A DNA stretch of 64,000 nucleotides from Escherichia coli (GCF_029227855.1 NZ_CP074356.1), one strand, 5' to 3'. Counted from the stretch's first letter, positions 9,916 to 31,445 are shown. The notes: a model not told the origin generated them from the sequence alone. Numbers and translations: made by a program.

Positions 9916-9923
9916 TGAAATTA

Positions 9924-13091: not shown

Positions 13092-13102
13092 CGGGAGGCG
13101 CT

Positions 13103-13456: not shown

Positions 13457-13467
13457 AAGGGGGATGT

Positions 13468-14438: not shown

Positions 14439-14445
14439 GGACGCT

Positions 14446-15186: not shown

Positions 15187-15201
15187 TCCGGAGAGTCAGC
15201 G

Positions 15202-15624: not shown

Positions 15625-16040
15625 GTTTTGCCCTGAAACTGGCGCGTGAGATGGGGCGACCCGACTGGCGTGCCATGCTTGCCGGGATGTCATCCACGGA
15701 GTATGCCGACTGGCACCGCTTTTACAGTACCCATTATTTTCATGATGTTCTGCTGGATATGCACTTTTCCGGGCTGACGTACACCGTGCTCAGCCTGTTT
15801 TTCAGCGATCCGGATATGCATCCGCTGGATTTCAGTCTGCTGAACCGGCGCGAGGCTGACGAAGAGCCTGAAGATGATGTGCTGATGCAGAAAGCGGCAG
15901 GGCTTGCCGGAGGTGTCCGCTTTGGCCCGGACGGGAATGAAGTTATCTCCGCTTCCCCGGATGTGGCGGACATGACGGAGGATGACGTAATGCTGATGAC
16001 AGTATCAGAAGGGATCGCAGGAGGAGTCCGGTATGGCTGA
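15202..16040 (+). CDS. T: tail assembly protein G-T fusion (made by -1 frameshift); T portion is 15606-16040
   Basis: ORF 15606-16040 in the -1 frame overlapping the G 3' end; product matches lambda gpT region. Confidence 0.8.
15600..15606 (+). promoter_or_regulatory. programmed -1 ribosomal frameshift slippery site GGGAAAG (G to G-T fusion)
   Basis: Heptamer G GGA AAG near the end of G, with the T frame open downstream, as in lambda. Confidence 0.85.
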
Positions 16041-18594
16041 ACCGGTAGGCGATCTGGTCGTTGATTTGAGTCTGGATGCGGCCAGATTTGACGAGCAGAT
16101 GGCCAGAGTCAGGCGTCATTTTTCCGGTACGGAAAGTGATGCGAAAAAAACAGCGGCAGTCGTTGAACAGTCGCTGAGCCGACAGGCGCTGGCTGCACAG
16201 AAAGCGGGGATTTCCGTCGGGCAGTATAAAGCCGCCATGCGTATGCTGCCTGCACAGTTCACCGACGTGGCCACGCAGCTTGCAGGGGGGCAGAATCCGT
16301 GGCTCATCCTGCTGCAACAGGGGGGGCAGGTGAAGGACTCCTTCGGCGGGATGATCCCCATGTTCAGGGGGCTTGCCGGTGCGATCACCCTGCCGATGGT
16401 GGGGGCCACCTCGCTGGCGGTGGCGACCGGTGCACTGGCGTATGCCTGGTATCAGGGCAACTCAACCCTGTCCGATTTCAACAAAACGCTGGTCCTTTCC
16501 GGCAATCAGGCGGGACTGACGGCAGATCGTATGCTGGTCCTGTCCAGAGCCGGGCAGGCGGCAGGGCTGACGTTTAACCAGACCAGCGAGTCACTCAGCG
16601 CACTGGTTAAGGCGGGGGTAAGCGGTGAGGCTCAGATTGCGTCCATCAGCCAGAGTGTGGCGCGTTTCTCCTCTGCATCCGGCGTGGAGGTGGACAAGGT
16701 CGCTGAAGCCTTCGGGAAGCTGACCACAGACTCGACGTCGGGGCTGACGGCGATGGCACGCCAGTTCCATAACGTGACGGCGGAGCAGATTGCGTATGTT
16801 GCTCAGTTGCAGCGTTCCGGCGATGAAGCCGGGGCATTGCAGGCGGCGAACGAGGCCGCAACGAAAGGGTTTGATGACCAGACCCGCCGCCTGAAAGAGA
16901 ACATGGGCACGCTGGAGACCTGGGCAGACAGGACTGCGCGGGCATTCAAATCCATGTGGGATGCGGTGCTGGATATTGGTCGTCCTGATACCGCGCAGGA
17001 GATGCTGATTAAGGCAGAGGCTGCGTTTAAGAAAGCAGACGACATCTGGAATCTGCGCAAGGATGATTATTTTGTTAACGATGAAGCGCGGGCGCGTTAC
17101 TGGGATGATCGTGAAAAGGCCCGTCTTGCGCTTGAAGCCGCCCGAAAGAAGGCTGAGCAGCAGACTCAACAGGACAAAAATGCGCAGCAGCAGAGCGATA
17201 CCGAAGCGTCACGGCTGAAATATACCGAAGAGGCGCAGAAGGCTTACGAACGGCTGCAGACGCCGCTGGAGAAATATACCGCCCGTCAGGAAGAACTGAA
17301 CAAGGCACTGAAAGACGGGAAAATCCTGCAGGCGGATTACAACACGCTGATGGCGGCGGCGAAAAAGGATTATGAAGCGACGCTGAAAAAGCCGAAACAG
17401 TCCGGCGTGAAGGTGTCTGCGGGCGATCGTCAGGAAGACAGTGCTCATGCTGCCCTGCTGACGCTTCAGGCAGAACTCCGGACGCTGGAGAAGCATGCCG
17501 GAGCAAATGAGAAAATCAGCCAGCAGCGCCGGGATTTGTGGAAGGCGGAGAGTCAGTTCGCGGTACTGGAGGAGGCGGCGCAACGTCGCCAGCTGTCTGC
17601 ACAGGAGAAATCCCTGCTGGCGCATAAAGATGAGACGCTGGAGTACAAACGCCAGCTTGCTGCACTTGGCGACAAGGTTACGTATCAGGAGCGCCTGAAC
17701 GCGCTGGCGCAGCAGGCGGATAAATTCGCACAGCAGCAACGGGCAAAACGGGCCGCCATTGATGCGAAAAGCCGGGGGCTGACTGACCGGCAGGCAGAAC
17801 GGGAAGCCACGGAACAGCGCCTGAAGGAACAGTATGGCGATAATCCGCTGGCGCTGAATAACGTCATGTCAGAGCAGAAAAAGACCTGGGCGGCTGAAGA
17901 CCAGCTTCGCGGGAACTGGATGGCAGGCCTGAAGTCCGGCTGGAGTGAGTGGGAAGAGAGCGCCACGGACAGTATGTCGCAGGTAAAAAGTGCAGCCACG
18001 CAGACCTTTGATGGTATTGCACAGAATATGGCGGCGATGCTGACCGGCAGTGAGCAGAACTGGCGCAGCTTCACCCGTTCCGTGCTGTCCATGATGACAG
18101 AAATTCTGCTTAAGCAGGCAATGGTGGGGATTGTCGGGAGTATCGGCAGCGCCATTGGCGGGGCTGTTGGTGGCGGCGCATCCGCGTCAGGCAGTACAGC
18201 CATTCAGGCCGCTGCGGCGAAATTCCATTTTGCAACCGGAGGATTTACGGGAACCGGCGGCAAATATGAGCCAGCGGGGATTGTTCACCGTGGTGAGTTT
18301 GTCTTCACGAAGGAGGCAACCAGCCGGATTGGCGTGGGGAATCTTTACCGGCTGATGCGCGGCTATGCCACTGGTGGTTATGTCGGTGGCACCGGAAGTC
18401 CGGCACAAATGCGGCGTTCAGAGGGTATCAGATTTGAGCAGAACAACAACGTGGTGATTCAGAACGACGGTACGAATGGTCTGCCAGGTCCACAGATGCT
18501 GAAGGCGGTGTATGACATGGCCCGCAAGGGTGCCCGTGATGAAATTCAGGCACAGATGCGTGATGGTGGTCTGTTCTCCGGAGGTGGACGATGA
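16033..18594 (+). CDS. H: tail tape measure protein H
   Basis: 853-aa product, same length and position as lambda gpH; coiled-coil-rich; C-terminal Gly-rich segment. Confidence 0.92.
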   Translation: MAEPVGDLVVDLSLDAARFDEQMARVRRHFSGTESDAKKTAAVVEQSLSRQALAAQKAGISVGQYKAAMRMLPAQFTDVATQLAGGQNPWLILLQQGGQVKDSFGGMIPMFRGLAGAITLPMVGATSLAVATGALAYAWYQGNSTLSDFNKTLVLSGNQAGLTADRMLVLSRAGQAAGLTFNQTSESLSALVKAGVSGEAQIASISQSVARFSSASGVEVDKVAEAFGKLTTDSTSGLTAMARQFHNVTAEQIAYVAQLQRSGDEAGALQAANEAATKGFDDQTRRLKENMGTLETWADRTARAFKSMWDAVLDIGRPDTAQEMLIKAEAAFKKADDIWNLRKDDYFVNDEARARYWDDREKARLALEAARKKAEQQTQQDKNAQQQSDTEASRLKYTEEAQKAYERLQTPLEKYTARQEELNKALKDGKILQADYNTLMAAAKKDYEATLKKPKQSGVKVSAGDRQEDSAHAALLTLQAELRTLEKHAGANEKISQQRRDLWKAESQFAVLEEAAQRRQLSAQEKSLLAHKDETLEYKRQLAALGDKVTYQERLNALAQQADKFAQQQRAKRAAIDAKSRGLTDRQAEREATEQRLKEQYGDNPLALNNVMSEQKKTWAAEDQLRGNWMAGLKSGWSEWEESATDSMSQVKSAATQTFDGIAQNMAAMLTGSEQNWRSFTRSVLSMMTEILLKQAMVGIVGSIGSAIGGAVGGGASASGSTAIQAAAAKFHFATGGFTGTGGKYEPAGIVHRGEFVFTKEATSRIGVGNLYRLMRGYATGGYVGGTGSPAQMRRSEGIRFEQNNNVVIQNDGTNGLPGPQMLKAVYDMARKGARDEIQAQMRDGGLFSGGGR

Positions 18595-18920
18595 AAACCT
18601 TCCGCTGGAAAGTGAAACCCGGTATGGATGTGGCTTCGGCCCCTTCCGTAAGAAAGGTGCGCTTTGGTGATGGCTATTCCCAGCGAGCGCCTGCCGGGCT
18701 GAACGCTGACCTGAAAACGTACAGCGTGACGCTTTCTGTTCACCGTTGGGAGGCCACGGCGCTGGAGTCGTTTCTGGCTGAGCACGGGGGCTGGAAGGCC
18801 TTTCTGTGGACGCCGCCTTATGAGTGGCGGCAGATAAAGGTGACCTGCGCAAAATGGACGTCGCGGGTCAGTATGCTGCGTGTTGAGTTCAGCGCAGAGT
18901 TTGAACAGGTGGTGAACTGA
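18591..18920 (+). CDS. M: tail tip protein M
   Basis: 109-aa product at the lambda M position with matching length. Confidence 0.88.
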   Translation: MKTFRWKVKPGMDVASAPSVRKVRFGDGYSQRAPAGLNADLKTYSVTLSVHRWEATALESFLAEHGGWKAFLWTPPYEWRQIKVTCAKWTSRVSMLRVEFSAEFEQVVN

Positions 18921-19618
18921 TGCAGGATATCCGGCAGGAAACACTGAATGAATGCACCCGTGCGGAGCAGTCGGCCAGCGTGGTGCTCTGGGAAATCGAT
19001 CTGACAGAGGTCGGTGGAGAACGTTATTTTTTCTGTAATGAGCAGAACGAAAAAGGTGAGCCGGTCACCTGGCAGGGGCGGCAGTATCTGGCGTATCCCA
19101 TTCAGGGGAGTGGTTTTGAACTGAATGGCAAAGGCACCAGTACGCGCCCCATGCTGGCAGTCTCTAACCTGTACGGCATGGTCACCGGGATGGCGGAAGA
19201 CCTGCAGAGTCTGGTCGGCGGAACGGTGGTCAGGCGTAAGGTTTACGCCCGTTTTCTGGATGCGGTGAACTTCGTCAACGGAAACAGCGATGCCGATCCG
19301 GAGCAGGAGGTGATCAGCCGCTGGCGCATCGAACAGTGCAGCGAACTGAGCGCGGTCAGTGCCTCTTTTGTACTGTCCACACCGACGGAAACGGACGGCG
19401 CTGTTTTTCCGGGGCGCATCATGCTGGCCAACACCTGCACCTGGACCTATCGCGGTGATGAGTGCGGTTATAACGGTCCGGCGGTCGCGGATGAATATGA
19501 CCAGCCGACGTCCGATATCACGAAGGATAAATGCAGCAAATGCCTGAGTGGCTGTAAGTTTCGCAATAATGTCGGCAACTTTGGCGGCTTCCTTTCCATT
19601 AACAAACTTTCGCAGTAA
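18920..19618 (+). CDS. L: tail tip protein L
   Basis: 232-aa product at the lambda L position with matching length. Confidence 0.88.
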   Translation: MQDIRQETLNECTRAEQSASVVLWEIDLTEVGGERYFFCNEQNEKGEPVTWQGRQYLAYPIQGSGFELNGKGTSTRPMLAVSNLYGMVTGMAEDLQSLVGGTVVRRKVYARFLDAVNFVNGNSDADPEQEVISRWRIEQCSELSAVSASFVLSTPTETDGAVFPGRIMLANTCTWTYRGDECGYNGPAVADEYDQPTSDITKDKCSKCLSGCKFRNNVGNFGGFLSINKLSQ

Positions 19619-19623
19619 ATCCC

Positions 19624-20367
19624 ATGACAGAGACAGAATCAGCGATTCTGGCGCACGCCCGGCGATGTGCGCCAGCGGAGTCGTGCGGCTTCGTGGTGAG
19701 AACGCCGGAAGGGGAAAGATATTTTCCCTGCGTGAATATCTCCGGTGAGCCGGAGGCGTATTTCCGGATGTCGCCGGAGGACTGGCTGCGGGCAGAGATG
19801 CAGGGTGAGATTGTGGCGCTGGTCCACAGCCACCCCGGTGGCCTGCCCTGGCTGAGTGAGGCTGACAGGCGGCTGCAGGTGCAGAGCGATTTGCCTTGGT
19901 GGCTGGTCTGCCGGGGTGAGATTCATAAATTCCGCTGTGTGCCGCATCTTACCGGGCGGCGCTTTGAGCACGGGGCGACGGACTGTTACACGCTGTTCCG
20001 GGATGCTTATCATCTGGCGGGGATTGAGATGCCGGACTTTCATCGTGAGGATGACTGGTGGTGTAACGGCCAGAATCTCTATCTGGATAATCTGGAGGCC
20101 ACAGGGCTGTATCAGGTGCCGTTGTCAGCGGCGCAGCCGGGCGATGTGCTGCTGTGCTGTTTTGGTTCATCGGTGCCGAATCATGCCGCCATTTACTGCG
20201 GCGACGGTGAGCTGTTGCACCATATTCCTGAACAACTGAGCAAACGAGAGAGGTATACCGACAAATGGCAGCGACGCACACACTCCCTCTGGCGTCACCG
20301 GGCATGGCACGCATCTGCCTTTACGGGGATTTACAACGATTTGGCCGCCGCATCGACCTTCGTGTAA
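19624..20367 (+). CDS. K: tail tip assembly protein K (Mov34/JAB plus NlpC/P60-like)
   Basis: 247-aa ORF; the classical lambda K start would correspond to the internal ATG at 19768; contains HSHP metal-binding-like motif. Confidence 0.8.
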   Translation: MTETESAILAHARRCAPAESCGFVVRTPEGERYFPCVNISGEPEAYFRMSPEDWLRAEMQGEIVALVHSHPGGLPWLSEADRRLQVQSDLPWWLVCRGEIHKFRCVPHLTGRRFEHGATDCYTLFRDAYHLAGIEMPDFHREDDWWCNGQNLYLDNLEATGLYQVPLSAAQPGDVLLCCFGSSVPNHAAIYCGDGELLHHIPEQLSKRERYTDKWQRRTHSLWRHRAWHASAFTGIYNDLAAASTFV

Positions 20368-20912
20368 AAACGGGGGCTGAAGCCATCCGGGCGTTGTCCA
20401 CACAGCTCCCGGCGTTTCGTCAGGAACTGAATGACGGCTGGTATCAGGTGCGCATTGCCGGGCGTGATGCAGGTGAAACCGAATTATCTGCCCGTCTTAA
20501 TGAGCCGCTGGCAAATGGTGCCGTGATCCACATCGTGCCGCGTCTGGCGGGAGCTAAAAGTGGCGGTGTGTTTCAGGTGGTGCTGGGGGCGGCGCTGATT
20601 GCGGTGGCATGGTGGAACCCTGTGGGCTGGCTGGGAGCCGCGGCTGTATCGGGTATGTATGCGGCAGGGGCCAGTATGATCCTGGGCGGAGTGGCGCAGA
20701 TGCTGGCACCGAAAGCCAGGACGCCCACGGCAGCAAGTACAGATAACGGCAAACAGAACACCTATTTCTCCTCACTGGATAACATGGTTGCCCAGGGCAA
20801 TGTTCTGCCCGTTCTGTACGGTGAAATGCGCGTGGGGTCGCGGGTGGTCTCTCAGGAGATCAGCACGGCAGACGAAGGGGATGGTGGTCAGGTTGTGGTG
20901 ATTGGCCGCTGA
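20265..20912 (+). CDS. I: tail tip assembly protein I
   Basis: Product MAATHTLPLASPGMARICLYGDLQRFGRRIDLRVKTG... matches lambda gpI; overlaps the K 3' end as in lambda. Confidence 0.88.
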   Translation: MAATHTLPLASPGMARICLYGDLQRFGRRIDLRVKTGAEAIRALSTQLPAFRQELNDGWYQVRIAGRDAGETELSARLNEPLANGAVIHIVPRLAGAKSGGVFQVVLGAALIAVAWWNPVGWLGAAAVSGMYAAGASMILGGVAQMLAPKARTPTAASTDNGKQNTYFSSLDNMVAQGNVLPVLYGEMRVGSRVVSQEISTADEGDGGQVVVIGR

Positions 20913-20972
20913 TGCAAAATATTTCATGTGAAACCGCCTCCGGGCGGTTTTGTCGTTTATGGAGTATGACGA

Positions 20973-23900
20973 ATGGGCAAAGGAAGCAGTAAGGGGCATA
21001 CCCCGCGCGAAGCGAAGGACAACCTGAAGTCCACGCAACTGCTGAGTGTGATTGATGCCATCAGCGAAGGGCCGATTGAAGGTCCGGTGGATGGATTAAA
21101 AAGCGTGCTGCTGAACAGTACGCCAGTGCTGGACACTGAGGGGAATACCAACATCTCCGGCGTCACGGTGGTGTTCCGGGCCGGTGAGCAGGAGCAGACA
21201 CCGCCGGAGGGATTTGAATCCTCCGGCTCCGAGACGGTGCTGGGTACGGAAGTGAAATACGACACGCCGATCACCCGGACCATCACGTCGGCAAACATTG
21301 ACCGACTGCGTTTTACCTTCGGCGTGCAGGCACTGGTGGAAACCACCTCAAAGGGGGACAGGAATCCGTCGGAAGTCCGCCTGCTGGTTCAGATACAACG
21401 TAACGGTGGCTGGGTGACGGAAAAAGACATCACCATTAAAGGCAAAACCACCTCACAGTATCTGGCCTCGGTGGTGGTGGGTAACCTGCCGCCGCGCCCG
21501 TTCAATATCCGGATGCGCAGGATGACGCCGGACAGCACCACAGACCAACTGCAGAACAAAACGCTCTGGTCGTCATACACCGAAATCATCGATGTGAAAC
21601 AGTGCTACCCGAACACGGCACTGGTTGGCGTGCAGGTGGACTCGGAGCAGTTCGGCAGCCAGCAGGTGAGCCGTAATTATCATCTTCGCGGGCGCATTCT
21701 GCAGGTGCCGTCGAACTATAACCCGCAGACGCGGCAATACAGCGGTATCTGGGACGGAACGTTAAAACCGGCATACAGCAACAACATGGCCTGGTGTCTG
21801 TGGGATATGCTGACCCATCCGCGCTACGGCATGGGGAAACGTCTTGGTGCGGCGGATGTGGATAAATGGGCGCTGTATGTCATCGGCCAGAATTGCGACC
21901 AGTCAGTGCCGGACGGCTTTGGCGGCACGGAGCCACGCATCACCTGTAATGCATACCTGGCCACACAGCGCAAGGCGTGGGATGTGCTCAGTGATTTCTG
22001 CTCGGCGATGCGCTGTATGCCGGTATGGAACGGGCAGACGCTGACGTTCGTGCAGGACCGACCGTCCGATAAGGTGTGGACCTATAACCGCAGTAATGTG
22101 GTGATGCCGGATGATGGCGCGCCGTTCCGCTACAGCTTCAGCGCCCTGAAGGACCGCCATAATGCCGTTGAGGTGAACTGGATTGACCCGGATAACGGCT
22201 GGGAGACGGCGACAGAGCTTGTGGAGGACACGCAGGCCATTGCCCGTTACGGTCGTAACGTCACGAAAATGGATGCTTTTGGCTGTACCAGCCGGGGGCA
22301 GGCACACCGCGCCGGGCTGTGGCTGATTAAAACGGAGCTGCTGGAAACGCAGACCGTGGACTTCAGCGTGGGCGCAGAAGGGCTGCGCCATGTACCGGGT
22401 GATGTTATTGAAATCTGCGATGATGACTATGCGGGGATCAGCATTGGCGGGCGCGTGCTGGCGGTGAACAGCCAGACCCGGACGCTGACGCTCGACCGTG
22501 AAATCACGCTGCCATCCTCCGGTACCACGCTGATAAGCCTGGTTGACGGAAGTGGCAATCCGGTCAGCGTGGAGGTTCAGTCCGTCACCGACGGCGTGAA
22601 GGTAAAAGTGAGCCGTGTTCCTGACGGCGTTGCCGGATACAGCGTATGGGGGCTGAAGCTGCCGACGCTGCGCCAGCGCCTGTTCCGCTGCGTGAGTATC
22701 CGTGAGAACGACGACGGCACGTATGCCATCACCGCCGTGCAGCATGTGCCGGAAAAAGAGGCCATCGTGGATAACGGGGCGCACTTTGACGGCGAACAGA
22801 GTGGCACGGTGAATGGTGTCACGCCGCCAGCGGTGCAGCACCTGACCGCAGAAGTCACTGCAGACAGCGGGGAATATCAGGTGCTGGCGCGATGGGACAC
22901 ACCGAAGGTGGTGAAGGGCGTGAGCTTCCTGCTCCGTCTGACCGTAACAGCGGACGACGGCAGTGAGCGGCTGGTCAGCACGGCCCGGACGACGGAAACA
23001 ACATACCGCTTCAGGCAGCTGGCGCTGGGGAACTACAGGCTGACAGTCCGGGCAGTAAATGCCTGGGGGCAGCAGGGAGACCCGGCGTCGGTATCGTTCC
23101 GGATTGCCGCACCGGCAGCGCCGTCACAGATTGAGCTGACTCCGGGCTATTTTCAGATAACCGCCACGCCGCATCTTGCGGTTTATGATCCGACGGTACA
23201 GTTTGAGTTCTGGTTCTCGGAAAAGCGGATTGCGGATATCAGGCAGGTTGAAACCACAGCACGCTATCTTGGCACGGCGCTGTACTGGATAGCCGCCAGT
23301 ATCAATATCAAACCGGGCCATGATTATTATTTTTACATCCGCAGTGTGAACACCGTTGGCAAATCGGCATTTGTGGAGGCTGTTGGCCAGCCGAGTGATG
23401 ATGCATCCGGCTATCTGAATTTTTTCAAAGGAGAGATAGGGAAAACCCATCTGGCTCAGGAGCTGTGGACGCAGATTGATAACGGTCAGCTTGCGCCTGA
23501 CCTGGCGGAAATCAGAACGTCCATCACGGATGTCAGTAATGAAATCACGCAGACCGTCAATAAGAAACTGGAAGACCAGAGTGCGGCAATCCAGCAGATA
23601 CAGAAGGTTCAGGTTGATACAAATAATAACCTGAACAGCATGTGGGCTGTGAAGCTGCAGCAGATGCAGGACGGACGCCTTTATATCGCGGGTATTGGTG
23701 CCGGTATTGAGAATACCCCTGACGGTATGCAGAGTCAGGTGCTGCTGGCGGCGGACAGGATTGCGATGATTAATCCTGCGAATGGCAACACAAAACCGAT
23801 GTTTGTTGGTCAGGGCGATCAGATATTCATGAACGAAGTGTTCCTGAAATATCTGACGGCTCCCACCATTACCAGCGGCGGTAATCCTCCGGCATTTTCC

Positions 23901-24452
23901 CTGACACCGGACGGGCGGCTGACGGCGAAAAATGCCGATATTAGCGGTAACGTGAATGCGAACTCCGGGACGCTCAACAACGTCACGATTAACGAGAACT
24001 GCCGGGTTCTGGGAAAACTGTCCGCGAACCAGATTGAAGGCGATCTCGTTAAAACAGTGGGCAAAGCTTTCCCCCGGGACTCCCGTGCACCGGAACGGTG
24101 GCCATCAGGGACCATTACCGTCAGGGTTTATGACGATCAGCCGTTTGACCGGCAGATTGTTATTCCGGCGGTGGCATTCAGCGGCGCTAAACATGAGAGA
24201 GAGCATACTGATATTTACTCCTCATGCCGTCTGATAGTGCGGAAAAACGGTGCTGAAATTTATAACCGTACCGCGCTGGATAATACGCTGATTTACAGTG
24301 GCGTTATTGATATGCCTGCCGGTCACGGTCACATGACGCTGGAGTTTTCGGTGTCAGCATGGCTGGTAAATGACTGGTATCCCACAGCAAGTATCAGCGA
24401 TCTGCTGGTTGTGGTGATGAAGAAAGCCACCGCAGGCATCAGTATCAGCTGA
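20973..24452 (+). CDS. J: central tail fibre / host specificity protein J
   Basis: 1159-aa product at the lambda J position with a lambda-like N-terminus. Confidence 0.92.
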
Positions 24453-24471
24453 ATTTTATAACCCATATACG

Positions 24472-24496
24472 GGCGCCAGAAATGGCGCCTTTTTTA
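24472..24496 (+). terminator. rho-independent terminator downstream of J
   Basis: GGCGCCA-GAAA-TGGCGCC hairpin followed by TTTTTTT. Confidence 0.7.
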
Positions 24497-24519
24497 TTGC
24501 AGAAAAGCGAGAGGTAATT

Positions 24520-25119
24520 ATGCGTAAAGTTTGTGCCGCCATTTTTTCCGCAGCCATTTGTCTGGCCGTATCCGGTGCGCCTGCATGGGCATCTGAACAT
24601 CAGTCCACGCTGAGCGCGGGGTATCTTCATGCCTCGACGAACGTTCCCGGCAGCGATGATCTGAACGGGATTAACGTGAAATACCGTTATGAGTTTACGG
24701 ACACACTGGGGATGGTGACGTCATTCAGCTATGCAGGAGACAAGAATCGCCAGCTTACCCGTTACAGCGATACCCGCTGGCATGAAGATTCCGTGCGTAA
24801 CCGCTGGTTCAGCGTGATGGTGGGGCCGTCTGTGCGCGTGAATGAATGGTTCAGCGCGTATGCGATGGCGGGTATGGCTTACAGCCGTGTTTCGACTTTC
24901 TCCGGAGATTATATCCGCGTAACTGACAACAAGGGGAAAACGCACGATGTGCTGACCGGAAGTGATGACGGTCGCCACAGCGACACGTCTCTGGCATGGG
25001 GGGCTGGCGTGCAGTTTAACCCGACCGAATCCGTGGCCATTGATATTGCTTATGAAGGTTCCGGCAGTGGCGACTGGCGCACTGACGGTTTCATCGTGGG
25101 TGTCGGTTATAAATTCTGA
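24520..25119 (+). CDS. lom: outer membrane protein Lom (Ail/PagC family)
   Basis: 199-aa product with signal peptide and beta-barrel pattern, at the lambda lom position. Confidence 0.85.
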
Positions 25120-25146
25120 TTAGCCAGATAACACAGTGTTATGACA

Positions 25147-25172
25147 GCCCGCCGGTTCAGGCGGGCTTTTTT
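25147..25172 (+). terminator. rho-independent terminator downstream of lom
   Basis: GCCCGCC-GGTTCA-GGCGGGC hairpin followed by TTTTTT. Confidence 0.75.
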
Positions 25173-25177
25173 GTGGA

Positions 25178-27583
25178 GTGGATATGGCAGCAGTAAAAAT
25201 CTCAGGTGTGCTGAAAGATGGTGCGGGAAAACCAATACAGAACTGCACTATTCAACTGAAGGCAAAGCGTAACAGCACCACGGTACTGGTGAACACGGTG
25301 GCCTCTGAAAATCCGGATGAAGCCGGGCGTTACAGCATGGATGTTGAGTATGGCCAGTACAGCGTCACCCTGCTGGTTGAAGGTTTTCCGCCTTCGCATG
25401 CCGGGACCATTACCGTCTATGAAGGTTCCAGACCAGGTACGCTGAATGATTTTCTCGGTGCCATGACGGAAGAGGATGTCATGCCGGAGGCATTGCGCCG
25501 TTTTGAGGAAATGGTGGAAGAAGCGGCACGCAACGCCGAAGCCGCCTCTCAGAGCGCAGCGGCGGCAAAGAAATCCGAAACGGCTGCGGCATCATCGAAG
25601 AACGCGGCGAAAACCTCAGAAACGAATGCAGCTAATAGTGCACAGGCGGCAGCGACCTCAAAGACTGCATCGGCAAACTCCGCGACAGCAGCCAAAAAAT
25701 CAGAAACCAACGCGAAAAATAGCGAGACAGCCGCAAAGACGAGCGAAACCAACGCAAAGTCCAGCCAGACGGCAGCGAAAACCAGCGAAACGAATGCCAA
25801 AGCCAGTGAAACTGCGGCAAAAAACAGCCAGGTTGCAGCAGCCCAAAGCGAGAGCGCGGCAGCCGGTTCTGCGACTTCAGCAGCTGGATCAGCAACTGCT
25901 GCGGCTAACAGCCAGAAAGCTGCGAAGACGAGTGAAACTAACGCAAAGTCCAGCCAGACGGCAGCGAAGACCAGCGAAACGAATGCCAAAGCCAGCGAAA
26001 CTGCGGCGAAAAACAGCCAGGTTGCAGCAGCCCAAAGCGAGAGCGCGGCAGCTGGTTCTGCAAGCGCGGCGGCTGCTTCTGCCACTGCATCAGCCAACAG
26101 TCAAAAAGCGGCAAAAACCAGTGAAACCAATGCAAAGACAAGCGAGACTGCAGCGGCGAACTCGGCGAAAGCATCGGCAGCAAGCCAGACAGCAGCTAAA
26201 GCAAGTGAAGACGCAGCCAGAGAGTATGCAAGTCAGGCAGCAGAGCCGTATAAATATGTCTTACAGCCACTGCCTGATGTGTGGATACCGTTTAACGATT
26301 CACTGGATATGATTACGGGCTTTTCGCCGTCATATAAAAAAATTGTTATTGGTGATGATGAAATAACGATGCCTGGCGACAAGGTTGTTAAGTTTAAACG
26401 CGCATCAACTGCCACATATATCAATAAATCAGGCGTATTTAGTGTTGCTAAAATTGATGAGCCACGATTTGAAAAAGAAGGTTTATTGATTGAAGGACAG
26501 CGCACTAACTATTTTGTTAAATCCAATACTCCCGCTGAATGGACGAGTACCAGCAATATCGATAAAACTAATAATGGTGTTGATGAATTTGGTTTTTCAT
26601 ATGCCAAAATGCGAACAAAAGATAATATGACAGGACAATCATCTGCACTTAGTCTGCATACATGCAGTGCATCCCGGGGGATTGATGTTAGTGGCGATAA
26701 TAAGTATTGCACTGTTTCATGCAGGGTTAAAGCTCCTGATGGTCTTCGTTGTCGTTTGCGTTTTGAAAAATACGATGGGTCGGTTTATACATTTTTAGGA
26801 GATGCTTATTTAACTTTCGGAACTCTGATAATAGAAAAAACTGGCGGAGCAGCCAATAGAATAGCAGCTACTGCAACTAAAGATCCGGTTACAGGGTGGA
26901 TTTTCTATGAGGCAACTATAGAAGCTGTTGAAGGTGAAGCCTTAATTGGCGCAATGATTCAGTATGCGCCGAAAAAAGGTGGTATAACTGAAGCGGGAGA
27001 TTATATTTACCTTGCAACACCACAATTTGAAAACGGCGGATGTGCTTCATCTTTTGTTATTACGACAACTGCACCCGCAACCCGCTCCAGTGATATGGTG
27101 ACGATCCCAACTGAAAATAATATCTATAATAGACCGCTTACGTGTCTTGTCGAGGTCAATAGAAATTGGGGCGATATTCCTCCTAATGTAGCACCGCGTA
27201 TTTTTGATTTTTCTGGTGTGCCACCTATTGAGTCAATTACATACGCTTTTAACACAACTGAGAAATATTACGGTCAGCTTTATATACAAACTTATAAAGC
27301 GTCGACAAGTACTTACGTTTCTAGTGTGTTTGCTGGTCGAACTGATGTTCGAAAATTCATTGGTGGTTTTAATATTTATTCTGATGGTACTAAACGAGTA
27401 GTTTCTAACGGTGAGGCTACTAAAACTATGAAAACGGAGTGGACGGGCGTAAAAACACGGACCTTTATTCGAATTGGAGGTCAAGCCACATCGGGAACTC
27501 GTCATCTATTCGGCCATTTGAGAAATCTTCGTCTCTGGCATAAAGAATTAACTGATGCGCAAATGGGGGAGAGTATTAAATGA
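25178..27583 (+). CDS. stf: side tail fibre protein (Stf-like) with a divergent AT-rich C-terminal receptor-binding region
   Basis: 801-aa product; lambda Stf-like N-terminus (MAVKISGVLKDGAGKPIQNCTIQLKAKRN...); Ala/Lys/Ser/Thr-rich repeats; C-terminal half has different composition. Confidence 0.85.
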   Translation: MDMAAVKISGVLKDGAGKPIQNCTIQLKAKRNSTTVLVNTVASENPDEAGRYSMDVEYGQYSVTLLVEGFPPSHAGTITVYEGSRPGTLNDFLGAMTEEDVMPEALRRFEEMVEEAARNAEAASQSAAAAKKSETAAASSKNAAKTSETNAANSAQAAATSKTASANSATAAKKSETNAKNSETAAKTSETNAKSSQTAAKTSETNAKASETAAKNSQVAAAQSESAAAGSATSAAGSATAAANSQKAAKTSETNAKSSQTAAKTSETNAKASETAAKNSQVAAAQSESAAAGSASAAAASATASANSQKAAKTSETNAKTSETAAANSAKASAASQTAAKASEDAAREYASQAAEPYKYVLQPLPDVWIPFNDSLDMITGFSPSYKKIVIGDDEITMPGDKVVKFKRASTATYINKSGVFSVAKIDEPRFEKEGLLIEGQRTNYFVKSNTPAEWTSTSNIDKTNNGVDEFGFSYAKMRTKDNMTGQSSALSLHTCSASRGIDVSGDNKYCTVSCRVKAPDGLRCRLRFEKYDGSVYTFLGDAYLTFGTLIIEKTGGAANRIAATATKDPVTGWIFYEATIEAVEGEALIGAMIQYAPKKGGITEAGDYIYLATPQFENGGCASSFVITTTAPATRSSDMVTIPTENNIYNRPLTCLVEVNRNWGDIPPNVAPRIFDFSGVPPIESITYAFNTTEKYYGQLYIQTYKASTSTYVSSVFAGRTDVRKFIGGFNIYSDGTKRVVSNGEATKTMKTEWTGVKTRTFIRIGGQATSGTRHLFGHLRNLRLWHKELTDAQMGESIK
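25560..26220 (+). repeat. intragenic tandem repeats within stf (about 186-bp unit duplicated at about 25735-25920 and 25921-26106, plus shorter degenerate repeats)
   Basis: Near-identical DNA blocks encoding ...KTSETNAKSSQTAAKTSETNAKASETAAKNSQVAAAQSESAAAGSA... twice. Confidence 0.8.
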
Positions 27584-27861
27584 AAGATTTAACACTCAAA
27601 TTTGCAGACAGGGCCGACTTTTCGGCCTTTATGGAGAGCATTGGCTATTATGATGACGAGTCGATGCAGGATGATATTCTTATTGACGTGATAGGTAATG
27701 TGTACAAAGAAACCGGAGAACTGACTGAAGATGGCGAACCGGTATGTGTTAAGGAAGACGGATATTTTGTAAACGTGCGCATCATTAATGATTCGCAAAT
27801 ATCGTCAATATTCGATGAATACGTGGTTGCTGTTGAGCATCAACTTCGTGGCTGGATGTGA
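27580..27861 (+). CDS. hypothetical protein (93 aa) between the two tail fibre genes
   Basis: ORF starting at the stf stop overlap (ATGA); acidic product; function not assignable. Confidence 0.45.
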   Translation: MKDLTLKFADRADFSAFMESIGYYDDESMQDDILIDVIGNVYKETGELTEDGEPVCVKEDGYFVNVRIINDSQISSIFDEYVVAVEHQLRGWM

Positions 27862-27870
27862 GGAAGAAAA

Positions 27871-28911
27871 ATGGCTACATCGACAGTAATTCCTGATGAC
27901 ATCAAAACGCTAAAATCCGACGTTAGCAAATTAAAAAACGATCAAGGAAGCTACGCAACAAAATTATATGTAGACAGCAAAGATGAAATCGTTGGTGACT
28001 GGTCTGTTTCATGGTATCAGCAGGTATTGCCAACTAGCGGAGCTATATTTGGGAGAAAACTCCGCTCAACTCACAGGACGGCAGGTGTTGAGGATGCGTA
28101 TTGCGAACTATACCTCAAAAAATGGATAGACAGTCCAGGTAACGCAATGGCGCGCCTTAACCTGAACGATAACGGGACAAACATTTGCTGGGACTTTACC
28201 AACCTTTATGGCGGTACGATGATTTTTCCCGGTGACAGCGGATACCTCAAAATGGGTAACTGCCTTATGTCATACAGCAAGCGTGGAAGTAACGCGCTTA
28301 TTAAATTTGATTACACCGACACATTACAGATCAAATATGCCAATCATGGGTCAACCATGACATTAAACACACAGGGAACCGCTTATGCTGGTGTTACTGC
28401 TCAATTGTGGGGCAACTCCAGCCGTCCTGTTGTTTATGAAGTCGGTGTTGATGGTGGCGCTTATATGTTCTATGCGCAGAAAAATACCGATAACACCTAT
28501 ATGTTAAGCGTTAATGGTGCATGTCATGCCACCGCATTTAACCAGCATTCCGACCGGGATCTGAAAGACAACATTCAGGTGATCGATAATGCAACCGACC
28601 GCATCCGTAAAATGAACGGCTATACATACACGCTTAAAGAAAACGGTATGCCCTATGCTGGTGTCATTGCACAGGAAGCTCTGGAAGCAATCCCAGAAGT
28701 TGTAGGTTCCGCAATGAAATATCAGGACGGTGCGAGCGGATCGGAAGGTGAAGAAGGTGAACGTTATTACACAGTAGATTATTCTGGTGTTACTGGCTTG
28801 CTTGTTCAGGTAGCCAGAGAGTCAGACGACAGAATAACAGCACTGGAAGAAGAAAACGCAGAATTAAGACAAAGATTATCTGCAATTGATGCGGCGCTTG
28901 CGTCTAAATAA
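27871..28911 (+). CDS. tail fibre/spike protein with C-terminal intramolecular chaperone (endosialidase-chaperone-like) domain
   Basis: 346-aa product; C-terminal region (SDRDLKDNIQVIDNATDRIRKMNGYTYTLKE...YAGVIAQEA...LEEENAELRQRL) is typical of self-cleaving tail-fibre chaperone domains. Confidence 0.7.
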   Translation: MATSTVIPDDIKTLKSDVSKLKNDQGSYATKLYVDSKDEIVGDWSVSWYQQVLPTSGAIFGRKLRSTHRTAGVEDAYCELYLKKWIDSPGNAMARLNLNDNGTNICWDFTNLYGGTMIFPGDSGYLKMGNCLMSYSKRGSNALIKFDYTDTLQIKYANHGSTMTLNTQGTAYAGVTAQLWGNSSRPVVYEVGVDGGAYMFYAQKNTDNTYMLSVNGACHATAFNQHSDRDLKDNIQVIDNATDRIRKMNGYTYTLKENGMPYAGVIAQEALEAIPEVVGSAMKYQDGASGSEGEEGERYYTVDYSGVTGLLVQVARESDDRITALEEENAELRQRLSAIDAALASK

Positions 28912-28917
28912 TATTAA

Positions 28918-28940
28918 GGGGCCGAGCGCCCCGTTTTATT
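28918..28940 (+). terminator. hairpin terminator-like element after the tail fibre gene
   Basis: GGGGC-CGAGC-GCCCC followed by GTTTTATT. Confidence 0.5.
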
Positions 28941-29247
28941 GGGTAGGATGAAAATGGATATAACACCTTTCCTTCATGCGCTTTGTGCTGTGGCTGCGCA
29001 GCTACTGATTGGTCTTTTTACCGGGAACTGGGCTTACGGGGCGATAGCCGGTTGTACGTTCTTCATTGCGCGTGAACACACCCAGGCAGAATATCGCTGG
29101 ATCGAAATGTTCGGGCATGGCAAGCGAATGAATATGCCGTGGTGGGGCGGTTTTGATCCACGCGCGTGGGATGTGGCAAGCCTGATGGATTTTGCTGTGC
29201 CGGTGGTGGCGTGTCTGCTGGTCTGGCTGTTGGTTAATCGTGGGTGA
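28939..29247 (+). CDS. hypothetical small membrane protein (102 aa)
   Basis: ORF with two hydrophobic segments; prophage accessory region. Confidence 0.45.
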
Positions 29248-29459
29248 AAAAAGGTGGGCTGTATATGCAACGGAGGAAGAAACCACGTTGCTGGAAGCCT
29301 GGAAGAAGTATCGGGTGTTGCTGAACCGTGTTAATACAACAACTGCACCGGATATTGAATGGCCAACAGTACCCATTATCGAATAGTGCATTACGAACTG
29401 CAGGATATTATATGGGATAATATTCTGCAGTTTATTGGGGCTGTATTTTAAAAAGGTGT

Positions 29460-30791
29460 TTATTTTGAGTGAATTATCACCTTGTTTTTTCCGGTTCTTT
29501 TGGCTTGATATAACGCTTTGTCGGCATTGACTAACATTTCAGATGGACTGAGATTATTCTCTTTTGAAGCAAAGCAACCAATACTGACAGTTATTTTCTC
29601 AGGTCCATGCGATAATAATTTTTCCGAGCATTGCTCTTCAATGTTTTTTCTGATTCGCTCTGCAATTGATAGCAAGAGTTTTTGAGTATTACCTTTAATG
29701 ATAATACCGAACTCCTCACCGCCTAAGCGCCCTAATATATCCTCTTTCCTGATGGATTTTTTTATTATTCTGGTAACCATTACTATGACTTGATCACCCA
29801 TATGATGCCCCCATTTGTCATTGATGCTTTTGAAACTGTCAATATCTAACATTATTACTGAGAAATCATGGTGTTTTGATATATTCTTCAATGAGTCAAT
29901 AAAGTATCTTCTATTGTATGTATTCGTTAGTGGATCATGAATTGCCATATGATTAGCATGATTTAATTTCCTGAAAACATAATACATGAGTGTTGAAATG
30001 ATATAAATCATTGATATCAATTCAAGAAATTTTGTCATGTACCATGCAGGATGGGATTTATCAATAAAATACAATAAAATTAGATTATTGCATACTGACA
30101 CTATACTAATAAGTATTATACACAACCATATTTTTGAGTAATTACGTATGCTGATGCATGAGCTGATAAGTAATACAAGCCAAAATACTGATATTATTTT
30201 GGTGTACACGATATTCCACGTCGACAAATGACGATTCAGCGAGTATTGTATAATATTAAGACTATATTTTATATGGTCACTGCTTAGATTTTTTGCTACA
30301 AACGGAGTAATAAAAAGAATTAATATTGACAAAACAACAATTATTATGTTTCTTTTATCTTCTAAAATACTTTTATTTTTAACATTGGTGGAATAAACAG
30401 CCAGAAAGATTATAGATATAAAGCTGAACTGACGGAATAGATAATATATTGCGATATCATTTGATTTCTGATAGATTGTAGATAAATCGTTACCTAACGG
30501 AGATAAAGAAATAATAGCCACTTCTAATAAATAATACGTGTTGCTCAAAAACGCGAATGAAAGAATTAAGAGATAACTTTGTCTCTGATTAGAAACATAG
30601 TAAAGCAATAGAAAAATAAAAATCATCAGGTTTATGAAAAAAAGCCCAATAATGAAAACACTATAACTTATTTGTGTTGTTTGTGTTATGTATATTCCAT
30701 TATTTTCATGCAGTAACAAAAATATAATAGAGATGCATGAAAATAAAAAGATGAAGATTTTTATTTTTATAGGTACCTGGTTGATAATCAT
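29460..30791 (-). CDS. membrane-anchored GGDEF-domain protein (putative diguanylate cyclase), prophage cargo
   Basis: 443-aa product; multi-helix hydrophobic N-terminal part and C-terminal GGDEF domain with RLGGEEF motif; strongly AT-rich. Confidence 0.75.
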   Translation of the reverse strand: MIINQVPIKIKIFIFLFSCISIIFLLLHENNGIYITQTTQISYSVFIIGLFFINLMIFIFLLLYYVSNQRQSYLLILSFAFLSNTYYLLEVAIISLSPLGNDLSTIYQKSNDIAIYYLFRQFSFISIIFLAVYSTNVKNKSILEDKRNIIIVVLSILILFITPFVAKNLSSDHIKYSLNIIQYSLNRHLSTWNIVYTKIISVFWLVLLISSCISIRNYSKIWLCIILISIVSVCNNLILLYFIDKSHPAWYMTKFLELISMIYIISTLMYYVFRKLNHANHMAIHDPLTNTYNRRYFIDSLKNISKHHDFSVIMLDIDSFKSINDKWGHHMGDQVIVMVTRIIKKSIRKEDILGRLGGEEFGIIIKGNTQKLLLSIAERIRKNIEEQCSEKLLSHGPEKITVSIGCFASKENNLSPSEMLVNADKALYQAKRTGKNKVIIHSK

Positions 30792-31040
30792 GTACGCACC
30801 TGAGAATGATATATATATAATATGTATCGCTACAAATAACGATAATTTCTTACTGGTGATAGTATACTATTATTCTGGTTAATCGCTGTCAAATTGATGA
30901 TTTTGGTTAGTATTGCAATAGCGAAGGGTTTGATCCGGTAAGACTGGCTAGGCAAGGCTATACCAAAAAATCAGTGTAGGTTCAGAAAACGATGCACCAT
31001 ACAATCATCAATAATTTCAAATTGTCCATTGTGCATAAAT

Positions 31041-31084
31041 CATAAAGAAAACCGCAGCACGTCGTATGCAAGAACGTGCTGCGG
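31041..31084 (-). terminator. orphan rho-independent terminator-like hairpin (minus strand)
   Basis: CCGCAGCACG...CGTGCTGCGG stem followed on the minus strand by TTTTCTTTAT; no minus-strand ORF upstream of it. Confidence 0.4.
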
Positions 31085-31383
31085 TTGGCTGGTGAGCTTT
31101 CGATAGTGCGAGTATTGAATGATTTCCAGACGTTACCGATTTTATATAACTGCAGTGGAATTATTCAACACACAGGCAAAACGGAATAAGCTGAGAAAAA
31201 AGCGTGCTTTCCCAATCTGGGGCAAATCACGTCTGAATGACACCTGAAAACAGGTGGTAGCCTCAAGAAGGCTTGGAATATTCTTCTTTAATGTTATGTA
31301 ATTCATTGATTTTTCTTGTACGATTTTAAGACATTTATTCCAAGAAAAATTTTTAACTCTTTGATTTTTCGACTCTGTATCAT

Positions 31384-31445
31384 CGGTCTCGAAAACCGGA
31401 GTAGGGGCAACTCTACCGGGGGTTCAAATCCCCCTCTCTCCGCCA
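31384..31445 (+). tRNA. 3' fragment of a tRNA-Ser gene (anticodon arm to CCA end; 5' part missing), likely prophage att remnant
   Basis: CGGTCTCGAAAACCGGAGTAGGGGCAACTCTACCGGGGGTTCAAATCCCCCTCTCTCCGCCA matches the 3' part of E. coli tRNA-Ser (CGA anticodon, serU-like) from memory; no matching 5' acceptor strand upstream. Confidence 0.7.

What the first reader, a model, noticed from the sequence alone, without database searches (positions are those of the whole stretch)
29460..30791. Prophage-borne membrane GGDEF protein at the prophage end
A strongly AT-rich gene for a polytopic membrane protein with a C-terminal GGDEF domain (RLGGEEF) lies between the tail-fibre genes and the att remnant, i.e. 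inside the prophage. It could alter host c-di-GMP signalling (motility, biofilm, phage receptors) as a lysogenic-conversion function, and the flagellar regulon is encoded nearby.
Basis: partly seen in the sequence, partly recalled or inferred. Interest (0 to 1): 0.45.

Follow-up and report, generated by a model that had tools for sequence, protein, structure and literature searches.

The report
Known prophage-carried diguanylate cyclase DgcX
The gene is dgcX, an already described membrane enzyme that makes the biofilm signal c-di-GMP and travels at the tail end of lambda-like prophages in E. coli; here it sits in a less common integration site, so the finding is correct but not new.

Summary
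Window 29460-30791 (- strand) is an intact 443-aa ORF with 29.7% G+C. It has a MASE4 membrane domain and a GGDEF domain, with GGEEF at residues 357-361 and an RxxD I-site at 348-351.

It is dgcX (Richter et al. 2014). Two published dgcX primers match the window exactly, and the catalytic glutamates carry the published numbering (E359/E360). The protein differs at 7 of 443 residues from the allele at the lambda attachment site.

The gene lies inside the prophage. A 62-nt copy of the 3' part of tRNA-Ser (serU), the attR, lies at 31384-31445. Prophage-free genomes such as K-12 match only from 31384 onward.

Closely related prophages at the same site lack the gene. It sits in a ~1.66-kb AT-rich block inserted between the stop of a tail-fibre-assembly gene remnant and its downstream hairpin, which is a classic moron.

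770 of 5,426 complete E. coli genomes carry dgcX:
- 595 at attB-lambda
- 86 at argW
- 42 at the Rac site
- 29 at serU, as here

Published work already shows that DgcX represses motility and raises cellulose through its GGEEF site.

The parts
29460..30791 (-). dgcX coding sequence (443 aa plus stop): MASE4-GGDEF inner-membrane diguanylate cyclase
   Evidence: ORF. Pfam MASE4 + GGDEF. Published dgcX primers match exactly at 30778-30800 and 30818-30842. 100% identical to WP_032201758.1 in strain 20.
29970..30674 (-). MASE4 membrane sensor domain (residues 40-274)
   Evidence: PF17158, 122.9 bits, profile positions 4-237 of 239. Hydrophobic segments.
29481..29945 (-). GGDEF catalytic domain (residues 283-437)
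   Evidence: PF00990, 151 bits. TIGR00254, 162 bits. Closest solved chains are a GGDEF/receiver protein (6zxm) and PleD, E about 1e-24.
29709..29723 (-). A-site GGEEF (residues 357-361; E359 and E360)
   Evidence: Same residue numbers as the published E359A/E360A mutants (PMC10459773).
29739..29750 (-). I-site RxxD (RKED, residues 348-351), five residues upstream of GGEEF
   Evidence: R348 and D351 are invariant in 17 relatives.
30864..30892 (-). Best sigma-70-like promoter match upstream of dgcX (TTGACA, 17 nt, TAGTAT; 10 of 12)
   Evidence: Consensus scan only. The total number of sites in the region is not above shuffles. It lies within the upstream stretch shared with the allele whose -412..+18 fragment drove strong lacZ expression (PMC4287979).
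29395..29433 (.). AT-rich perfect hairpin between the tfa remnant and the dgcX stop; probable terminator
   Evidence: -20.8 kcal/mol on the + strand (z -5.5) and -15 kcal/mol on the - strand (z -7.6). Part of the block that is also conserved downstream of the 67% homologue.
29267..29386 (+). 3' remnant of a tail-fibre-assembly (tfa) gene that travels with dgcX
   Evidence: Annotated as a partial tfa in strain 20 and at the other sites. 94-97% identical to the 3' end of intact tfa genes. An intact tfaR abuts dgcX in strain 1500.
29387..31043 (.). The dgcX moron proper (about 1.66 kb, 30.5% G+C): hairpin, dgcX and about 250 bp of upstream region
   Evidence: In 'empty' lambdoid prophages the tfa stop is followed within a few bases by the sequence at window 31044-31144 (L018). 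A same-type prophage at serU without dgcX resumes homology at 31079 (L008). G+C.
31050..31086 (.). G+C-rich hairpin that follows the tfa stop in prophages lacking dgcX; right-hand conserved flank of the moron
   Evidence: -29.3 and -24 kcal/mol on the + and - strands. 93% identical to L018 5126-5227. On the - strand it is followed by a U-rich tract.
31384..31445 (+). attR: displaced 3' part of tRNA-Ser (serU); host DNA starts here
   Evidence: Alignment with intact serU. ARAGORN finds no complete tRNA in the window. Prophage-free genomes match only from 31384.
1..31383 (+). Right-hand part of a lambda-like prophage integrated at serU (head, tail, J, lom, tail fibres). The left end lies outside the window, and an insertion at about 745-11863 splits the major capsid gene.
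   Evidence: Collinear with the annotated prophage of strain 20.

Best explanation
The ORF is dgcX, the accessory diguanylate cyclase first described in E. coli O104:H4. It is carried as a moron at the tail-fibre end of a lambda-like prophage, here one integrated into tRNA-Ser (serU).

**Shown here**
- The protein has an intact MASE4 membrane domain and a GGDEF domain with GGEEF A-site and RxxD I-site.
- It lies on the phage side of attR.
- It occupies a discrete, AT-rich block of about 1.66 kb, inserted between the stop codon of a tail-fibre-assembly gene and the hairpin that normally follows it.
- Otherwise homologous prophages at the same site lack the block.
- The same block occurs at at least four chromosomal sites.

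**Taken from published experiments on near-identical alleles**
- The gene is transcribed from its own strong sigma-70/sigma-S promoter, independently of prophage induction.
- The enzyme represses flagellar motility, stimulates cellulose and supports curli/CsgD, all dependent on the GGEEF motif.

**Inferred**
- In this strain the membrane-anchored enzyme dimerises and condenses 2 GTP into c-di-GMP.
- It is feedback-inhibited through the I-site.
- An unknown signal sensed by MASE4 modulates it.
- It raises the lysogen's c-di-GMP pool, which is lysogenic conversion towards sessility.
- It spreads between co-resident lambdoid prophages by homologous recombination through its conserved flanks: the tfa 3' end on one side and the roughly 100-bp hairpin region on the other.
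For: **Identity**
- Primers dgcX-u-18 and dgcX-d-(-62) from PMC4287979 Table S3 match exactly at 30778-30800 and 30818-30842.
- GGEEF is at residues 357-361, so E359/E360 match the published mutants (PMC10459773).
- The protein differs at 7 of 443 residues from the attB-lambda allele, none in the A- or I-site.
- That allele's upstream flank contains the O104:H4 -412 primer sequence.

**Domains.**

**Inside the prophage**
- attR lies at 31384-31445, and prophage-free genomes match only from 31384.
- At attB-lambda the core GCTTTTTTATACTAA and a lambda-like P arm also lie beyond dgcX.

**Moron**
- Presence/absence is polymorphic in the same prophage type at the same site (L008; H170 and H171).
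- The empty site is seen in L018.
- The block is 30.5% G+C against 50.5% for the prophage.
- It has a promoter-like site and a hairpin.

**Spread**
- 770 of 5,426 genomes carry it.
- Junction counts are 595 at attB-lambda, 86 at argW, 42 at Rac/sitD and 29 at serU.
- A tfa remnant or an intact tfa lies 74 bp from the dgcX stop at all four sites.

**Function**
- PMC4287979: highest expression of any E. coli DGC gene, partly RpoS-dependent.
- PMC10459773: cellulose goes up and motility down on overexpression; this is abolished by E360A and by E359A/E360A; the deletion mutant is slightly more motile.
Against: - No enzymology, c-di-GMP measurement or phenotype exists for this allele or this strain.
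- In Fec101 the chromosomal deletion had only minor effects on biofilm (PMC10459773), so the physiological contribution may be small.
- The promoter-like site is a consensus match, and the total number of such matches in the region is not above shuffles.
- The terminator scan called no site; the hairpins were found by folding.
- No deposited phage genome (50,697 records) and no PLSDB plasmid carries the gene, so packaging of dgcX into virions is undocumented.
- In this window the prophage's capsid gene is split, so this copy is probably not mobile by its own phage.
- The recombination route of spread is inferred from the flanks only.
Confidence: 0.9

Rival explanations
1. dgcX is not phage cargo. 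[quoted passage not shown]
For: [quoted passage not shown]
- No phage record contains it.
- At argW and at some attB-lambda sites it sits among decayed prophage remnants.
Against: - At serU and at attB-lambda the att core lies beyond dgcX, so the gene is within the att-bounded element.
- It is inserted exactly between a phage gene (tfa) and that gene's downstream hairpin.
- It always keeps a tfa fragment at its 3' side.
- Prophage-free genomes have nothing at this position.
- An ancient capture by specialised transduction is not excluded as the origin.
Confidence: 0.06
2. The protein is not an active cyclase in this strain. It would be a degenerate c-di-GMP-binding or scaffold protein like its paralogue CdgI (YeaI), or a decaying passenger of a defective prophage.
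For: - The closest chromosomal relatives include CdgI, whose A-site is degenerate (P0017 reads LEGDVF; PMC5635695).
- The prophage here is defective.
- Deletion phenotypes in Fec101 are weak (PMC10459773).
Against: - The ORF is full-length with GGEEF and RxxD intact.
- 766 of 770 carriers keep at least 80% of the gene, and 595 are at least 99% identical.
- The seven differences from the attB-lambda allele avoid the motifs.
- GGEEF-dependent phenotypes are published for DgcX (PMC10459773).
Confidence: 0.04
3. The selected function serves the phage rather than the host. High c-di-GMP in the lysogen would remodel the surface (matrix, flagella, c-di-GMP-dependent glycans such as the NfrB product) and so change adsorption of competing phages, a superinfection-exclusion-like role.
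For: - The gene occupies the classic accessory slot after the tail-fibre genes.
- Three diverged lineages of the same protein type (100%, 67% and 51% identity) all sit at lambdoid prophage ends or remnants. This suggests a long association with phages.
- c-di-GMP controls the phage N4 receptor glycan through NfrB (PMC8669469, PMC8669472).
Against: - There is no direct evidence.
- DgcX matches no PADLOC model.
- Raising c-di-GMP would sensitise cells to N4 rather than protect them.
- The adjacency of the 67% homologue to nfrBA-ybcH is explained by the argU prophage site.
- The gene persists in heavily decayed prophages, which fits host benefit.
Confidence: 0.12

Closest known systems
DgcX of E. 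coli O104:H4 / EAEC 55989 (Richter et al. 2014, PMC4287979; Cimdins-Ahne et al. 2023, PMC10459773)
   Same: - It is the same gene.
- Published primers match exactly.
- It has the same 443-aa MASE4-GGDEF architecture.
- GGEEF has E359/E360 and the RxxD site lies 5 residues upstream.
- About 98% amino-acid identity.
- It lies next to lambdoid tail-fibre genes.
   Different: - **Integration site.** This copy is at serU, next to the zinT side. The sites described in the papers I could read are attB-lambda (ybhC/ybhB), ydaW-uspF and argW-dsdC. Only 29 of 770 carriers have the serU configuration.
- **Sequence.** There are 7 amino-acid differences from the attB-lambda allele.
- **Upstream region.** Homology ends about 250-357 bp upstream, so the published -412 primer site is absent.
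DgcT (YcdT) and CdgI (YeaI), the chromosomal MASE4-GGDEF paralogues of E. coli K-12
   Same: They share the same two-domain architecture. The I-site is invariant, and DgcT also has GGEEF.
   Different: - Identity is only 34-39%.
- They sit at fixed chromosomal loci. For example, the Citrobacter relative P0014 sits at the yeaI position between yeaH and yeaJ.
- They are not prophage-borne.
[quoted passage not shown]
- dgcT is very weakly expressed, whereas dgcX is strongly expressed (PMC4287979).
Lambdoid phage morons in the region after the tail-fibre genes (e.g. lom and bor of lambda; moron concept of Juhala/Hendrix, from my own knowledge)
   Same: - It is an autonomous block of deviating composition inserted between two phage features.
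- It is present or absent among otherwise homologous prophages.
- It is expressed from the repressed prophage.
- It alters the host phenotype.
   Different: - The cargo is a second-messenger synthase with a membrane sensor domain rather than an outer-membrane or surface protein.
- It is transcribed convergently to the tail genes.

Membership tests
GGDEF-domain diguanylate cyclases (PF00990 / TIGR00254) | GGDEF domain match above the curated cut-off | tested here: met
   PF00990 151 bits against 23.8, full length 1-161. TIGR00254 162 bits against 37.4.
GGDEF-domain diguanylate cyclases (PF00990 / TIGR00254) | Intact GG(D/E)EF active-site motif | tested here: met
   GGEEF at residues 357-361. 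G358 is invariant, and G357, E360 and F361 are at least 90% conserved among 17 relatives.
GGDEF-domain diguanylate cyclases (PF00990 / TIGR00254) | Allosteric I-site RxxD five residues upstream of the A-site (subclass with product inhibition) | tested here: met
   RKED at residues 348-351. R348 and D351 are invariant.
GGDEF-domain diguanylate cyclases (PF00990 / TIGR00254) | Synthesis of c-di-GMP from GTP | not testable with these tools
   Only indirect and published: GGEEF-dependent cellulose and motility phenotypes of DgcX from another strain (PMC10459773).
MASE4 membrane sensor domain (PF17158) | Match to the MASE4 profile over its length, within a polytopic hydrophobic N-terminus | tested here: met
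   122.9 bits against 28.4, profile positions 4-237 of 239. Hydrophobic segments within residues 1-273.
DgcX (Richter et al. 2014) | Sequence identity with the gene named dgcX in O104:H4 | tested here: met
   - Two of four published primers match exactly, and a third has 2 mismatches at the 3' end of the gene.
- 98% identity to the attB-lambda allele, whose flank holds the fourth primer.
DgcX (Richter et al. 2014) | Location directly next to lambdoid prophage DNA | tested here: met
   Tail-fibre genes and a tfa remnant lie immediately downstream, and attR lies beyond the gene.
DgcX (Richter et al. 2014) | Very strong sigma-70/sigma-S-dependent expression | not testable with these tools
   The first ~250-357 bp upstream are conserved with the allele used for the published lacZ fusion. 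A 10-of-12 promoter-like site lies at 30864-30892. Activity was not measured.
Phage moron | Present or absent between otherwise homologous phage genomes, at a gene boundary | tested here: met
   L008, H170 and H171 have the same prophage type at serU without it. In L018 the tfa stop abuts the hairpin directly.
Phage moron | Nucleotide composition unlike the surrounding phage genome | tested here: met
   30.5% G+C against 50.5%.
Phage moron | Own promoter and terminator | tested here: inconclusive
   - There is a promoter-like site, and a strong hairpin by folding.
- The terminator scan called nothing, and promoter-like sites are not enriched over shuffles.
- A published lacZ fusion shows an autonomous promoter for the attB-lambda allele (PMC4287979).
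Known anti-phage defence systems (PADLOC-DB) | Match to any defence-protein model | tested here: not met
   No PADLOC family at E <= 0.001.

The most novel reading that the evidence does not exclude
DgcX-type MASE4-GGDEF genes may not be a single recently 'hitchhiking' gene. They may instead be an old, diversified family of lambdoid-phage morons.

Three lineages sit at the tail-fibre end of lambdoid prophages or their remnants:
- the window's type;
- a 67%-identical type beside an intD-integrase remnant at argU;
- a 51%-identical type beside a Rac-type stf/tfa/pin module.

All three have about 30% G+C. This would point to a long-selected role for phage-encoded c-di-GMP synthesis. One possibility is control of surface structures that other phages use as receptors.
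Probability: 0.2. Interest if true: 0.45.

Novelty: already known. Interest (0 to 1): 0.15.

Why it matters
DgcX is regarded as a contributor to the strong adherence and biofilm phenotype of enteroaggregative and O104:H4 outbreak E. coli. Knowing that a strain carries it is therefore useful for annotation.

This analysis adds small refinements rather than a discovery:
- The gene lies on the phage side of the att core at both serU and attB-lambda. It is therefore true prophage cargo, a moron inserted between tfa and its hairpin, and not flanking DNA.
- serU is a minority fourth site, in 29 of 770 carriers.
- The conserved flanks offer a simple recombination route between co-resident lambdoid prophages.
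- Diverged relatives occupy equivalent prophage-end positions.

None of this changes the understanding of c-di-GMP signalling.

Tried and rejected
1. **The -412 primer.** The published dgcX -412 primer does not match the window, even with 3 mismatches. I first took this as possible non-identity. It is explained instead: that primer lies in the attB-lambda-specific stretch beyond the shared block.
2. **Phage and plasmid collections.**
   - DNA search (blastn 'distant') against 50,697 phage records gave no match.
   - Protein search gave only GGDEF-domain hits below 40% identity, none covering the MASE4 part.
   - PLSDB plasmids matched only the tfa and hairpin flanks.
3. **A functional link to the Nfr system.**
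   - A 67% homologue lies directly downstream of nfrBA-ybcH.
   - DGC genes are linked to nfr operons in pseudomonads (PMC8669469).
   - I rejected this as the likely reason for the adjacency. The gene is followed by an intD-type integrase 3' remnant and argU, so it is the leftover end of an argU prophage.
   - HMM searches with the 55-aa integrase remnant found nothing. The DNA match to annotated integrase genes settled it.
4. **Family libraries.** NCBIfam has no DgcX-specific model, only generic GGDEF hits below the equivalog cut-offs. PADLOC gave nothing. PHROGs matched GGDEF-domain families of unknown function only.
5. **A paper I could not read.** Povolotsky & Hengge 2016 (J Bacteriol 198:111), the main comparative study, is not held. 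I cannot say whether the serU site is mentioned there.
6. **Flagellar neighbourhood.** I rejected the fli genes as meaningful context. They are nearby because serU lies about 20 kb from the fli cluster in all E. coli.
7. **Structure prediction.** I did not run it, because the protein is a known, characterised family member.

Full report
**1. The observation**

Window 29460-30791 on the minus strand is a 443-codon ORF starting with ATG. Pfam assigns residues 40-274 to MASE4 (122.9 bits, cut-off 28.4) and residues 283-437 to GGDEF (151 bits, cut-off 23.8). NCBIfam's generic GGDEF model agrees, and no equivalog model reaches its cut-off.

GGEEF occupies residues 357-361 (window 29709-29723). An RxxD I-site (RKED) occupies residues 348-351, five residues upstream.

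The gene is 29.7% G+C. The prophage part of the window is 50.5% and the host part 49.1%. A hydropathy scan gives about 7-8 hydrophobic segments in residues 1-273. Every element of the description is confirmed.

**2. What the gene is**

The window is E. coli. The gene is 100% identical to a 'sensor domain-containing diguanylate cyclase' of strain 20 and occurs in 770 of 5,426 complete E. coli genomes.

It is dgcX, the extra diguanylate cyclase described in the 2011 O104:H4 outbreak strain (PMC4287979). The evidence:
- Primer dgcX-u-18 from that paper's Table S3 matches the window exactly at 30778-30800, across the start codon.
- Primer dgcX-d-(-62) matches exactly at 30818-30842.
- Primer dgcX-u-1310 matches the 3' end of the gene with two mismatches.
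- The catalytic glutamates fall at positions 359 and 360. These are the residues mutated as E359A and E360A in the functional study of DgcX (PMC10459773).
- The protein differs at 7 of 443 residues from the allele at the lambda attachment site. None of the seven lies in the A- or I-site.

The fourth primer (-412) does not match. That is explained: its sequence lies in a stretch specific to the attB-lambda context, outside the block shared between sites.

**3. Where it lies**

In strain 20 the gene order is: yersiniabactin island, asnT, mtfA, serU, integrase, a lambda-like prophage (Q, lysis, terminase, head, tail, J, lom, tail fibres), partial tfa, dgcX, then yodB, zinT and msrQP.

The window starts inside this prophage and is collinear with it. 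Downstream of dgcX, at 31384-31445, lies a 62-nt copy of the 3' part of serU with two mismatches to the intact gene. ARAGORN finds no complete tRNA in the window.

Genomes without a prophage here (K-12 MG1655, DH1, B and most others) match the region only from window 31384 onward, under an annotated tRNA-Ser. Window 31384 is therefore the phage-host junction (attR), and dgcX is inside the att-bounded element.

All serU-site carriers listed have the tail-fibre genes next to dgcX.

**4. Anatomy of the insert**

The block shared with the other three chromosomal sites runs from about 29266-29292 to 31147-31148.

Two comparisons narrow the true insert:
- A prophage of the same type at the same site in strain CREC-U1 (L008) has the same tail-fibre module but no dgcX. 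Homology with the window stops at 29232 and resumes at 31079. H170 and H171 show the same pattern.
- In a lambdoid prophage with an intact tfa and no dgcX (L018), the tfa stop codon is followed within a few bases by the sequence found at window 31044-31144. That sequence contains a G+C-rich hairpin.

So dgcX sits in a block of about 1.66 kb (about 29387-31043, 30.5% G+C). The block is inserted between the tfa stop and its downstream hairpin. It contains:
- an AT-rich perfect hairpin at 29395-29433;
- the gene itself;
- about 250 bp of upstream DNA, with a 10-of-12 sigma-70-like site at 30864-30892.

This fits the definition of a phage moron. The promoter and terminator calls are only pattern-level evidence. 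Promoter-like sites are not enriched over shuffles, and the terminator scan called nothing.

**5. Distribution**

Junction-spanning queries count the sites among the 770 carriers:

| Site | Genomes |
|---|---|
| attB-lambda (next to ybhB) | 595 |
| argW-dsdC island | 86 |
| Rac site (next to sitD/uspF) | 42 |
| serU, as in this window | 29 |
| Total of the four | 752 |

A tfa remnant or an intact tfaR lies 74 bp from the dgcX stop at all four sites.

At attB-lambda the core GCTTTTTTATACTAA, preceded by a lambda-like P arm, lies beyond dgcX. The gene is on the phage side of attR there as well.

This sharpens the published wording. One paper says 'adjacent to' prophages, hitchhiking by specialised transduction (PMC4287979). 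[quoted passage not shown]

The conserved flanks (tfa 3' end and hairpin region) suggest transfer between co-resident lambdoid prophages by homologous recombination. That is an inference.

No deposited phage genome and no PLSDB plasmid carries the gene.

**6. Relatives**

Full-length MASE4-GGDEF relatives are confined to Escherichia and Citrobacter. This agrees with PMC10459773.

In an alignment of 17 sequences:
- R348 and D351 of the I-site and G358 are invariant.
- G357, E360 and F361 are at least 90% conserved.
- The exceptions are a CdgI-like sequence (LEGDVF) and one divergent sequence.

It is also the residue shown to dominate activity (PMC10459773).

Contexts of the more distant relatives:

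| Relative | Identity | Context |
|---|---|---|
| P0010 | 67% | Between ybcH-nfrA-nfrB and folD; followed by an intD-type integrase 3' remnant and argU, so it is the remaining end of an argU prophage |
| P0013 | 51% | Between uspF and ynaE/pin/tfa/stf of a Rac-type prophage |
| P0014 (Citrobacter) | 41% | At the yeaI position |

The position of the 51% gene relative to attR was not resolved. The two more divergent Escherichia lineages have about 30-31% G+C.

**7. How it most likely works**

- **Shown here:** intact catalytic and allosteric motifs, a membrane sensor domain, a location inside the prophage, and moron structure.
- **Published for near-identical alleles:**
  - A -412..+18 fragment drives higher lacZ expression in K-12 than any other E. 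coli DGC promoter. It is active in growth and is further induced through RpoS (PMC4287979).
  - Overexpression enhances the rdar morphotype, induces csgD-independent cellulose and represses swimming.
  - E360A and the double mutant abolish these effects.
  - Deletion slightly raises motility and has little effect on the rdar morphotype (PMC10459773).
- **Inferred:** in this lysogen the enzyme adds to the c-di-GMP pool and pushes the cell towards sessility. An unknown MASE4 signal and I-site feedback modulate it.

The fli genes at 50463-60913 and dgcQ nearby are there because of where serU lies on the chromosome. They carry no weight as evidence.

**8. Verdict**

The gene and its role are already in the literature. 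What is added here is a minority integration site, exact moron boundaries, a site census, and prophage-end contexts for diverged relatives. Interest is low.

**9. In passing**

The prophage's lambda-type major capsid gene is split by an insertion of about 11.1 kb (window about 745-11863). The insert carries:
- an integrase split into two ORFs;
- a D5-type primase-helicase and an SSB;
- its own major capsid (E-type) and head-decoration genes;
- an AlpA regulator;
- a TIR-domain protein with PADLOC TIR hits.

It recurs with the same flanks in 25 genomes. It looks like a phage satellite integrated inside a prophage. That kind of event has been mentioned in the literature (PMC10085698). It also implies that this dgcX-bearing prophage cannot build its own capsid.

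Noticed in passing
window ~745-11863 (flanks 473-775 and 11878-12699): An insertion of about 11.1 kb splits the prophage's lambda-type major capsid gene. It encodes:
- an integrase in two ORFs (857-1369 and 1409-2143);
- a DUF2971 protein and a SWIM protein;
- a D5-type primase-helicase (5168-6919) and an SSB;
- its own E-type major capsid (7916-9169) and head-decoration protein (9179-9520);
- AlpA;
- a TIR+DUF3298 protein (10514-11656, - strand) with PADLOC TIR hits.

Iteron-like repeats lie at 6928-7161. The element with the same flanks recurs in 25 complete E. coli genomes.

It looks like a capsid-encoding phage satellite that targets the capsid gene of a helper-type prophage. Satellites inside prophages are mentioned in PMC10085698, but I did not check whether this element or this target is described.
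   Followed up: partly
L010 8001-9335 (E. coli CP057162.1), also L009 and L011: A 67%-identical DgcX-like gene lies directly downstream of, and co-oriented with, nfrB-nfrA-ybcH, the c-di-GMP-dependent glycan system needed for phage N4. It is followed by an intD-type integrase 3' remnant and argU. The adjacency is therefore probably what is left of an argU prophage. A functional pairing with NfrB was not excluded.
   Followed up: partly
L012 8001-9341 (E. coli AATBKR010000001.1): A 51%-identical MASE4-GGDEF gene (cluster of 106 sequences; close relatives in E. albertii) lies between uspF and ynaM/ynaE/pin/tfa remnant/stf of a Rac-type prophage. It is convergent with the tail genes, like dgcX. 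Its position relative to the Rac attR was not resolved.
   Followed up: partly
window 31893-32114: yodB (cytochrome b561 homologue), present between attR and zinT in strain 20, is absent here. The window and L006-L008 share a shorter sequence instead. It looks like a lineage-level polymorphism of the host flank, unrelated to dgcX.
   Followed up: no
window 25178-27583: The first tail-fibre gene (801 aa) contains long, near-perfect Ala/Ser/Thr-rich tandem repeats (KTSETNAKSSQTAAKTSETNAKASETAAKNSQVAAAQSESAAAGS...). In related prophages this part of the gene aligns in several broken, overlapping pieces.
   Followed up: no
L002 8284-9334 (strain 20, outside the window): In the 100%-identical relative, the serU prophage's integrase is annotated as frameshifted. 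This is another sign that serU-site dgcX prophages are decaying. The prophage there also carries an AbiH-family abortive-infection gene, hokD and iraM.
   Followed up: no
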